Below, piece after piece: positions 12,061 to 13,322 of a DNA stretch of 64,000 bases. The DNA comes from a virus. Its lineage: Duplodnaviria; Heunggongvirae; Uroviricota; Caudoviricetes. Positions within the stretch are counted from its first letter, which is position 1; each line of letters begins with the position of its first letter. Position numbers and translations under genes: made by a program. The notes beneath the pieces were generated by a model that saw only the letters and a list, made by a program, of their open reading frames with translations, did not search any database and was not told the DNA's origin. The stretch lies in the IMG/VR virus record IMGVR_UViG_2684622670_000009, positions 20,476 to 84,475 of that record; one strand, written 5' to 3'.

Positions 12061-13322
12061 TCAGCGAACGTAAATAGTGCCGCCGTTCTCTTTTTCCCAT
12101 GCATCGCTACGTGCATAGCAAACATCGAGAAGTCTTCTTGCCGCAGTTTCTTCTAAACCCAATTCAACAACCAACTGCTCATGACGGCGGGTAACTACAT
12201 CAAATAGGCTATGCAGCCCTTTAGTTGCCAGATCATCAATGAATTCCGGTTCGAAGGGCAGCTCTGCATCTGCCAACATAACTTCTTGCGCCCACTCAAC
12301 TCGACGGACCAGTTCTGGACGGCGGCTTTCCATCTCTTTACAAATCATTTCATGGAAGAACTCTACCCAACCTTCCGGCTGGAACTCGCGGAAAATGGCC
12401 AACGGCTGGAAGTTTGGCATCAACCATTCGTTGATTCGGATATCAATGGCATAGCCCATGTCGCAGCAGAACTGATAAGCAAAGTCCAGCTTAGAAACGA
12501 TATAAGGACGTTCGTTATTAAACTCTTTAGGAGATGAGATCCCATAAGCCAGGAGGCGTGGGAAGAAGGAGATTTGCCCTAACGTCGGATGAGGTTTGCT
12601 TGCAGGGAAACGGCGCTCAGTAATGCCATACATTTCTTTCTTGAGCGTCGCAAATTTGGCATTTTCATTAACCAGCTCAGTAACCTCTGTTTTTTATTAG
12701 CAAATGCCACCCGTGCCTCGCTTGCATCTTTAATAGCCTTTTTGAGCTGTTGGTTAAGGTCGGCGACCTGCTTACGCAGTTCCTGTCGCTCGCTTTTAGC
12801 TTTGTTATAGCGTTTCTCAAGGTTAAAAGGATCAAGTTTCATGATCTCTTTATATTGAGATTTTAGCGTTGAAATCTGTGAGTTCCGCAGTTCAACCATC
12901 GCGGTCATTTCATTGAGTTTTGTTTCCAGCTCAATGCTTATACGTTCGGCATTATCAGCACGCTGGTTGGCGTCATGCGTCGCATCGTCAATTGCGTCCT
13001 GTTGCTGGCGTTTCAAATGTTCAATTTGCAGCTGAAGCTCTTCAATTTCTTTACCCTTCAGACCGAGGTCCAGCTGCATATTTTCAGCTGCATCTACCAG
13101 GTCATTATGGCTATCAGCCTCTGCGTTATAAACATCAATAAGCTGTGCGTGAAGCATCTCTGCTGACTGAACCGCATTATCAAAAAAACGCGCTGTGAGG
13201 TCATCACAACTAACTCGGCGTTGCGCGGCCCGGATGTTCTGGATAATGGCCGGGATACCGGCATTCAGGACGTCAGGGATAGATACATTTTCGATTGATT
13301 GGTTTTGTGCTGAAGTGTTCAT
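12061..13322 (-). pseudogene. Coiled-coil protein with C-terminal globular domain, split into two ORFs by a -1 frame break in an A6 run (or a programmed frameshift)
   Basis: ORFs 12579..13322 and 12061..12633 overlap; the frame switches at gct aat aaa aaa (12690-12700); an A7 run would give about 420 aa in one frame. Confidence 0.5.

What the first reader, a model, noticed from the sequence alone, without database searches (positions are those of the whole stretch)
12061..13322. Two large ORFs each broken by a -1 frame change at the same AATAAAAAA motif
At 12690-12700 (minus strand) and at 41370-41381 (plus strand) an ORF stops shortly after the sequence AAT AAA AAA and the continuing ORF is open in the -1 frame from exactly that run. 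One extra A would fuse each pair (about 420 aa and 526 aa). Other A6 runs, for example in hsdR at 10683, do not break frames. Two breaks at the same 9-mer could be homopolymer sequencing errors, decay into pseudogenes, or tRNA-Lys slippage as at the dnaX A-AAA-AAG site.
Basis: seen in the sequence. Interest (0 to 1): 0.55.

Follow-up and report, generated by a model that had tools for sequence, protein, structure and literature searches.

The report
Two deletion-broken phage genes, not frameshifting
Two genes of a P1-like plasmid-prophage (the tail sheath gene and the dispensable gene pmgS) are broken by small deletions found only in this lineage, each lying next to an ordinary, conserved run of six A's, so this is routine gene decay and neither a sequencing error nor programmed frameshifting.

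Summary
The window is a P1/P7-like phage-plasmid. Both frame breaks are real and at the stated coordinates. Site 1 splits pmgS (P7 shtB, 420 aa when intact). Site 2 splits gene 22, the tail sheath (529 aa when intact).

The A-run is not the lesion. All relatives aligned also have AATAAAAAA with six A's at both sites. The window instead lacks the single G that follows the run in pmgS. In gene 22 it lacks 10 bp, collapsing a tandem repeat (TCACTGGCGT-TCACTGGCGG) to one copy.

Neither lesion appears in any listed row of about 700 related plasmid records or in 19 phage records. Both recur, 100% identical, in independent assemblies of runs DRR017159 and DRR017161, so they are in the reads.

No other coding indel breaks a frame, although the window holds 95 A/T runs of six or more. 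There is no downstream RNA structure. The motif in phase is only U_AAA_AAA, for which published E. coli data imply well under 1% slippage.

Gene 22 is essential for P1 lytic growth and pmgS is not. pmgS is independently broken elsewhere in three other plasmids.

Verdict: recent pseudogenes in a probably tail-defective prophage-plasmid. That both deletions abut the same 9-mer is unexplained and is most likely mutational bias plus coincidence.

The parts
12579..13322 (-). pmgS (P7 shtB) 5' fragment: 247-aa ORF, of which the first 211 aa are native and the last 36 aa are out-of-frame tail
   Evidence: phrog_1660 PmgS-like, whole repaired protein E=4e-193
12061..12693 (-). pmgS 3' part, open in the -1 frame from the A-run to the native stop (ORF listing shows it as the 190-aa ORF 12061..12633)
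12690..12698 (-). Conserved AAT-AAA-AAA (Asn-Lys-Lys) of pmgS. The lesion is the missing G between 12690 and 12689: relatives read AAAAAAGCAGAGG, the window reads AAAAAACAGAGG
40689..41453 (+). Gene 22 (tail sheath) 5' fragment: 254-aa ORF, native to Lys231, followed by 23 out-of-frame residues
   Evidence: phrog_1036 tail sheath, E=5e-229 for the repaired protein
41378..42268 (+). Gene 22 3' part, open in the -1 frame from the A-run to the native stop (listed as the 273-aa ORF 41447..42268)
41373..41381 (+). Conserved AAT-AAA-AAA (Asn-Lys-Lys) of gene 22, A6 in all relatives aligned
41382..41391 (+). Surviving single copy TCACTGGCGG of what is a 10-bp tandem repeat (TCACTGGCGT TCACTGGCGG) in P7 and the closest plasmids. 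The 10-bp deletion maps anywhere within this repeat
11482..11988 (-). pap (3'-phosphatase/5'-polynucleotide kinase), intact downstream neighbour of pmgS
13324..13542 (-). pmgR (P7 shtA), intact 72-aa upstream neighbour of pmgS
38901..40628 (+). Gene 23 (major head protein), intact upstream neighbour of gene 22
42278..43093 (+). Gene 21 (baseplate or tail tube), intact downstream neighbour of gene 22

Best explanation
Two independent, recent deletions private to this lineage have turned two genes of a P1/P7-like phage-plasmid into pseudogenes.

In gene 22 (tail sheath), replication slippage between two adjacent copies of a 10-bp direct repeat removed one copy. That is a net -1 frame change.

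In pmgS, the G immediately 3' of an A6 run was lost. This happened either directly, or through G->A (making A7) followed by the much more frequent A7->A6 contraction.

The AATAAAAAA motif is an ancestral, conserved Asn-Lys-Lys coding stretch present as A6 in all relatives aligned. It is not itself altered.

Gene 22 is essential for P1 plaque formation, so the element most likely can no longer make infectious particles and persists as a plasmid. Loss of pmgS is probably neutral.

Shown: the lesions, their privacy to this lineage, their reproducibility in reads, the intact state of homologues, and the absence of frameshift stimulators. Inferred: the mutational route, the loss of infectivity, and that any ribosomal slippage is negligible.
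For: Identity of the element and genes.

A6 in relatives, with delta-G and delta-10 bp as the only differences at the sites.

All 40 listed plasmid rows per site have the unbroken spacing (192 versus 191 nt, one row 193; 201 versus 191 nt). The best site-2 rows are 95.0% identical, which the 10 gap columns alone account for. All 19 phage records with pmgS span at least 80% of the query at 96.1-96.7% identity.

The exact junction sequences gave 0 hits in the collections scanned: the gene 22 junction in viral contigs and genome contigs, the pmgS junction in viral contigs.

The same truncated proteins, and 6.7 kb of flanking DNA at 100% identity, occur in Logan assemblies of DRR017161 and DRR017159.

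No other uncompensated coding indel was found against pPE15-92K and pEA32_2. 95 A/T>=6 runs, 20 of them >=7, break no frame apart from these two sites.

Repaired proteins are 97-99% identical to relatives on both sides of each lesion.

Private substitutions downstream of the lesions fall at third codon positions of the ancestral frame (10 of 11 in pmgS, 5 of 6 in gene 22). So the breaks are younger than nearly all of this lineage's divergence.

The gene 22 tandem repeat is one of only 8 close direct repeats of >=9 bp in the repaired window.

Gene 22 is essential and pmgS non-essential in P1 (PMC10695390).

pmgS is independently broken at other positions in pTB402, pTB202 and p20170604CC-1. Truncated PmgS and gp22 variants that are not marked partial are on record.
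Against: Both lesions sit directly 3' of the same in-phase 9-mer. A uniform mutation model does not predict this: roughly 0.1% per lesion, given 57 sense A>=6 runs in about 53 kb.

The platform and the strain identity of the DRR runs are unknown. They may be the reads from which the window's own assembly was made.

No A7 intermediate allele was found.

Only 64 kb of an 84-kb contig was seen, so the state of the rest of the prophage was not assessed.
Confidence: 0.8

Rival explanations
1. Leaky or compensatory recoding. The deletions are real, but each lies right after an in-phase AAA-AAA. Occasional -1 slippage of tRNA-Lys, or rare A6->A7 reversion in the DNA, would then restore nearly wild-type protein: PmgS with Ala212Thr, and gp22 with SLAF replaced by I. 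On this reading, lesions at such sites are the ones that persist.
For: A -1 shift at the run gives full-length 420-aa and 526-aa products with no out-of-frame segment. Both lesions, and only these, abut coding AATAAAAAA. Compensatory frameshifting and leaky frameshift mutants are documented (PMC5009743). tRNA-Lys(UUU) is the shiftiest E. coli tRNA (PMC4066793). A private synonymous change makes GGGUGG 11 nt upstream of the pmgS run, with dnaX-like spacing.
Against: The in-phase motif is U_AAA_AAA, not a true X_XXY_YYZ heptamer. A_AAA is the weakest of the shift-prone tetramers. Without a stimulator, tetramers sit at about 0.15% against 0.11% background, and heptamers reach at most about 10x a 0.055% background. 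Downstream folding is no better than shuffles, z -0.07 and +0.47. Sheath is a major structural protein needed in many copies per virion (established knowledge), so well under 1% is unlikely to matter. A plasmid-borne prophage needs no functional sheath to persist, so no survivorship filter is required. Other broken pmgS alleles are not at slippery sites.
Confidence: 0.08
2. Sequencing or assembly artefact. The true sequence is intact, and the breaks are errors near a homopolymer.
For: Errors cluster near homopolymers on flow-based and nanopore platforms. The platform of the source is unknown. NCBI carries no protein accession for these ORFs.
Against: The run length equals that of relatives (A6). 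A lost G and a clean 10-bp repeat-unit loss are not typical homopolymer miscalls. Identical junctions appear in reference-free Logan assemblies of at least two other runs. No other frame-breaking coding indel occurs in 64 kb despite 95 A/T>=6 runs.
Confidence: 0.05
3. Evolved programmed -1 frameshifting, or transcriptional slippage of the dnaX or IS type, producing two products from each gene.
For: Only the presence of an A6 run and an open -1 frame.
Against: The configuration is absent from every relative examined, where the genes are single ORFs. The lesions are recent. No stimulators are present. On established knowledge, efficient transcriptional slippage needs a run longer than six A's. 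Runs of 7 A or 7 U are already under-represented in E. coli genes, possibly for this reason.
Confidence: 0.02

Closest known systems
Frameshift pseudogenes in decaying P1-like phage-plasmids (defective prophages)
   Same: Small indels truncate morphogenesis genes of an otherwise P1-like plasmid. pmgS is independently broken in three other plasmids. Truncated gp22 and PmgS forms are on record.
   Different: These two particular lesions were not seen in any other record searched. Both happen to abut the same conserved 9-mer.
Slipped-strand deletion between short tandem direct repeats
   Same: The gene 22 lesion removes exactly one unit of a 10-bp tandem repeat with 9 identical bases.
   Different: Nothing unusual. 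The repeat happens to start right after an A6 run.
E. coli dnaX programmed -1 frameshift (A_AAA_AAG with an upstream SD-like element and a downstream stem-loop)
   Same: A lysine-codon A-run with an open -1 frame. A weak GGGUGG sits 11 nt upstream at the pmgS site.
   Different: The motif in phase is U_AAA_AAA. There is no downstream structure. The configuration is not conserved in homologues, and the -1 frame is needed only because of a recent deletion.
Compensatory ('corrective' or 'savior-indel') frameshifting, e.g. the herpesvirus thymidine kinase G-run mutants reviewed in PMC5009743
   Same: An indel beside a homopolymer that a low level of slippage could in principle correct.
   Different: There the indel is in the run, and function of the trace product is demonstrated. 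Here the function of any trace product is untested and expected to be negligible.

Membership tests
Programmed -1 ribosomal frameshift site (dnaX/IS type) | In-phase slippery heptamer X_XXY_YYZ | tested here: not met
   The 0-frame reads AAU-AAA-AAA-C/U, i.e. U_AAA_AAA. Only the A_AAA tetramer and P-site AAA re-pairing are available. A_AAA is the weakest shift-prone tetramer.
Programmed -1 ribosomal frameshift site (dnaX/IS type) | Stimulatory element: downstream stem-loop or pseudoknot, or an upstream SD-like sequence | tested here: not met
   The 80-nt downstream folds score z -0.07 and +0.47 against shuffles. The only candidate is a weak GGGUGG 11 nt upstream at site 1, and there is none at site 2.
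Programmed -1 ribosomal frameshift site (dnaX/IS type) | Two-ORF configuration conserved among homologues | tested here: not met
   P1, P7 and five plasmids have single ORFs of 1263 and 1590 bp. The repaired proteins match the PHROG profiles end to end.
Programmed -1 ribosomal frameshift site (dnaX/IS type) | Detectable trans-frame protein product | not testable with these tools
   This needs a reporter assay or mass spectrometry.
Transcriptional slippage site | Homopolymer long enough for RNA polymerase slippage (on established knowledge, longer than six A or T for efficient slippage) | tested here: not met
   The run is A6 at both sites.
Recent frameshift pseudogene | Intact orthologues exist, and the lesion is a derived indel absent from them | tested here: met
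Recent frameshift pseudogene | Both halves retain the ancestral reading frame's signature of purifying selection (the lesion is younger than the divergence) | tested here: met
   Downstream private substitutions are 10 of 11 (pmgS) and 5 of 6 (gene 22) at ancestral third codon positions. There are no further stops.
Recent frameshift pseudogene | The lesion is present in the DNA and is not an assembly error | tested here: met
   Logan contigs from DRR017161 and DRR017159 are 100% identical across both junctions. The platform is unknown, so a systematic read error is not fully excluded for the 1-bp site.
Punavirus (P1/P7-like phage-plasmid) | Nucleotide similarity and conserved gene order with P1 and P7 around both sites | tested here: met
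   94-97% nucleotide identity to P1 and P7 at both sites. The order 23-22-21 and pmgR-pmgS-pap is conserved.

The most novel reading that the evidence does not exclude
The two deletions persist in this lineage because each lies immediately after an in-phase AAA-AAA. Low-level -1 tRNA-Lys slippage, or A6->A7 reversion, would then regenerate nearly wild-type sheath and PmgS. That would make them leaky or reversible alleles that throttle virion production without abolishing it. It would also explain why both of the only two frame breaks abut the only two coding AATAAAAAA copies.
Probability: 0.07. Interest if true: 0.45.

Novelty: already known. Interest (0 to 1): 0.14.

Why it matters
Practically, the element should be annotated as carrying two pseudogenes, gene 22 (tail sheath) and pmgS. 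It should probably be treated as a tail-defective P1-like plasmid rather than an inducible phage, which bears on whether it can spread by infection.

Methodologically, it is a caution. A frame break beside an A-run looked like a homopolymer miscall or a recoding site, yet comparison with relatives showed the run unchanged and the lesion adjacent to it.

If the minority 'leaky allele' reading were true, it would be a natural bacterial example of compensatory frameshifting acting on a phage structural gene. That would be of modest interest, because the concept is already established.

Tried and rejected
1. A7 as the ancestral or true state: rejected. All relatives aligned have A6. An exact search for the A7 allele of pmgS in viral contigs found nothing.

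2. Shared lesions elsewhere, which would indicate an inherited or conserved configuration: none found. This covers the listed rows of the plasmid searches, 19 phage records, viral contigs and GTDB representative genomes. A search for this lineage's private pmgS allele upstream of the run also found nothing. The nearest intact allele of the same lineage was therefore not recovered, and the one-step and two-step routes for the G loss could not be told apart.

3. A general homopolymer error problem in the assembly: rejected.

4. Downstream RNA stimulators: none.

5. Identifying the source strain or sequencing platform from the run accessions in the literature: no paper found.

6. Clustering of private substitutions near the pmgS lesion as a sign of an evolved stimulator: rejected. 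24 private substitutions are spread along the gene, mostly at synonymous positions.

7. Pfam gave nothing informative for either protein. PHROGs confirmed both identities.

Full report
**What the window is.**
The region around both sites matches P1/P7-type phage-plasmids (Punavirus) at 94-97% nucleotide identity. Hundreds of related E. coli, Salmonella, Klebsiella and E. albertii plasmids also match.

Site 2 lies in gene 22, the tail sheath. It is 1590 bp and 529 aa in P1, P7 and plasmids, and is flanked by gene 23 (major head protein) and gene 21.

Site 1 lies in pmgS. The P7 record annotates it as shtB, 'sheath contraction'. It is 1263 bp and 420 aa in relatives, and sits between pmgR/shtA and pap.

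After repair, the two proteins match PHROG families end to end. These are phrog_1660 'PmgS-like head morphogenesis' (E=4e-193) and phrog_1036 'tail sheath' (E=5e-229).

**Checking the observation.**
The sequence is as described.

- AATAAAAAA lies at 12690-12698 (-) and 41373-41381 (+).
- The upstream ORFs (247 aa and 254 aa) run on for 37 and 24 codons and stop.
- The remainder of each gene is open in the -1 frame from within the A-run to the native stop.
- One added base after the run gives 420-aa and 526-aa products.

The -1 frame 'opens exactly at the run' because AATAAAAAA read in the -1 frame contains TAA.

The 9-mer alone is not significantly frequent: 4 copies against 1.5 expected, with 8 of 100 shuffles reaching 4. 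Its two other copies lie outside the ORFs that match annotated genes of relatives.

**What the lesions really are.**
Alignment with relatives shows that the A-run is not altered. P1, P7 and five plasmids all have AATAAAAAA with six A's at both sites.

- In pmgS, relatives read AAAAAAGCAGAGG and the window reads AAAAAACAGAGG. The single G after the run is missing.
- In gene 22, P7 and the closest plasmids read AAAAAA-TCACTGGCGT-TCACTGGCGG. The window keeps one copy only, a 10-bp deletion that can be placed anywhere within the tandem repeat.

Ten is 9+1, so both lesions have the same net effect on the frame. That is why the same '-1' correction works at both sites.

It is therefore a natural substrate for slipped-strand deletion.

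**Real or artefact?**
The evidence favours real lesions.

- The exact truncated proteins are on record in reference-free Logan assemblies of runs DRR017161 and DRR017159.
- The fetched contigs are 100% identical to the window over 6.7 kb around each site.
- Against two close relatives, the window has no other uncompensated indel inside a gene.
- It has 95 A/T runs of six or more, 20 of them seven or more. It has 57 sense-strand A>=6 runs in ORFs, and none other than these two sites breaks a frame.

A lost G and a clean loss of one repeat unit are not what homopolymer miscalling produces. The residual doubt is that the platform is unknown and these runs may be the source of the window's own assembly.

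**Private and recent.**
Neither lesion turned up anywhere else.

- All 40 listed plasmid rows for each site show the unbroken spacing. The best site-2 matches are 95.0% identical, which the 10 gap columns alone account for.
- All 19 phage records carry pmgS at 96.1-96.7% identity.
- Exact junction searches found nothing in the collections scanned.

The repaired proteins are 97-99% identical to relatives on both sides of the breaks.

This lineage's private substitutions downstream of the lesions fall at third codon positions of the ancestral frame: 10 of 11 in pmgS and 5 of 6 in gene 22. Those parts therefore evolved as coding sequence in the original frame until recently.

**Consequences.**
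In P1, gene 22 is essential: knock-down gives an efficiency of plating below 1.2e-7, and amber mutants are known. pmgS is non-essential by both knock-down and deletion (PMC10695390).

I infer that this element can no longer make infectious particles and survives as a plasmid.

Decay of these genes is common.

- pmgS is independently broken by other indels in pTB402, pTB202 and p20170604CC-1. The lesions are a 2-bp deletion plus a 1-bp insertion, a T7->T6 contraction, and a 13-bp deletion.
- Protein clusters hold truncated PmgS and gp22 forms that are not marked partial.
- One of these (P0017) reads as an A6->A5 contraction at this same gene 22 run in another lineage.

**Could slippage rescue the genes?**
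A -1 slip on AAA-AAA would give PmgS with Ala212Thr, and gp22 with SLAF replaced by I. Several points argue against this mattering.

- The motif in phase is U_AAA_AAA, not X_XXY_YYZ.
- In the systematic E. coli study, A_AAA is the weakest shift-prone tetramer.
- Without a stimulator, tetramers are barely above background (0.147% against 0.112%).
- Heptamers without a stimulator reach at most about ten times a 0.055% background (PMC4066793).
- Downstream folds are no more stable than shuffles, z -0.07 and +0.47.
- No homologue examined has a split gene.

Programmed frameshifting is therefore rejected. Trace 'leakiness' of the kind reviewed in PMC5009743 is physically likely but probably irrelevant for a protein needed in many copies per virion (established knowledge).

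**What remains unexplained.**
Both of the only two frame breaks abut the only two coding copies of the same 9-mer.

For pmgS, a run-linked route is plausible: G->A creating A7, then the far more frequent A7->A6 contraction. No A7 allele was found.

For gene 22, the tandem repeat explains the position, and its adjacency to the A-run looks coincidental.

A selective filter for leaky or revertible alleles is the only more interesting alternative. I give it about 7%.

**Verdict.**
This is ordinary gene decay in a P1-like phage-plasmid, of low novelty.

Noticed in passing
window 7216-7258 (inside hsdS, 6697-7977 +): A 12-bp tandem repeat GAGCTTACAGCA, about 3.6 copies, encodes Thr-Ala-Glu-Leu units in the middle of the type I specificity subunit. 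From memory, the copy number of such a repeat sets the spacer length of the target site in EcoR124-type (type IC) systems. If so, this is a possible specificity-switching repeat.
   Followed up: partly
window 50088-51423: A 1.3-kb insertion relative to E. albertii plasmid pEA32_2 carries a 402-aa IS605-family OrfB/TnpB (RNA-guided nuclease family). The Pfam hits are OrfB_IS605, Cas12f1-like_TNB and HTH_OrfB_IS605. It lies just downstream of the icd/ant (antirepressor) gene block.
   Followed up: partly
L011 (pTB402), L012 (pTB202), L013 (p20170604CC-1): pmgS is independently frameshifted in three other P1-like plasmids at different positions: a 2-bp deletion plus a 1-bp insertion, T7->T6, and a 13-bp deletion. 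These records list no gene there. This suggests recurrent loss of this dispensable gene.
   Followed up: yes
protein P0017 (Logan, 2.8-kb contig): A 257-aa truncated gp22 from another lineage reads ...VTNKNRWRSLAV.... That corresponds to A6->A5 at the very same A-run of gene 22. It is either a recurrent hotspot or a read error in that assembly.
   Followed up: no
window 12709-12714 (-), 11 nt upstream of the pmgS A-run: Two private synonymous changes turn GCGCGCGTGG of relatives into GCACGGGTGG. This creates a weak SD-like GGGUGG at dnaX-like spacing from the A-run. It is probably just lineage polymorphism, since 24 private substitutions are scattered along the gene.
   Followed up: partly
L008 (P7 record NC_050152) and window 12061-13542: The P7 record annotates pmgS as shtB ('sheath contraction') and pmgR as shtA ('sheath structure or assembly'). 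On that annotation, both broken genes in this window are sheath-related. The function is not experimentally supported in the papers read.
   Followed up: no
window 47855-47870, 49924 and 50049: Single-base length differences against pEA32_2 occur in short T or G runs next to C1-operator-like TATTAGAGCA sequences in the immunity region. They appear non-coding. The 161-aa ORF 47833-48318 (-) has no Pfam match.
   Followed up: no
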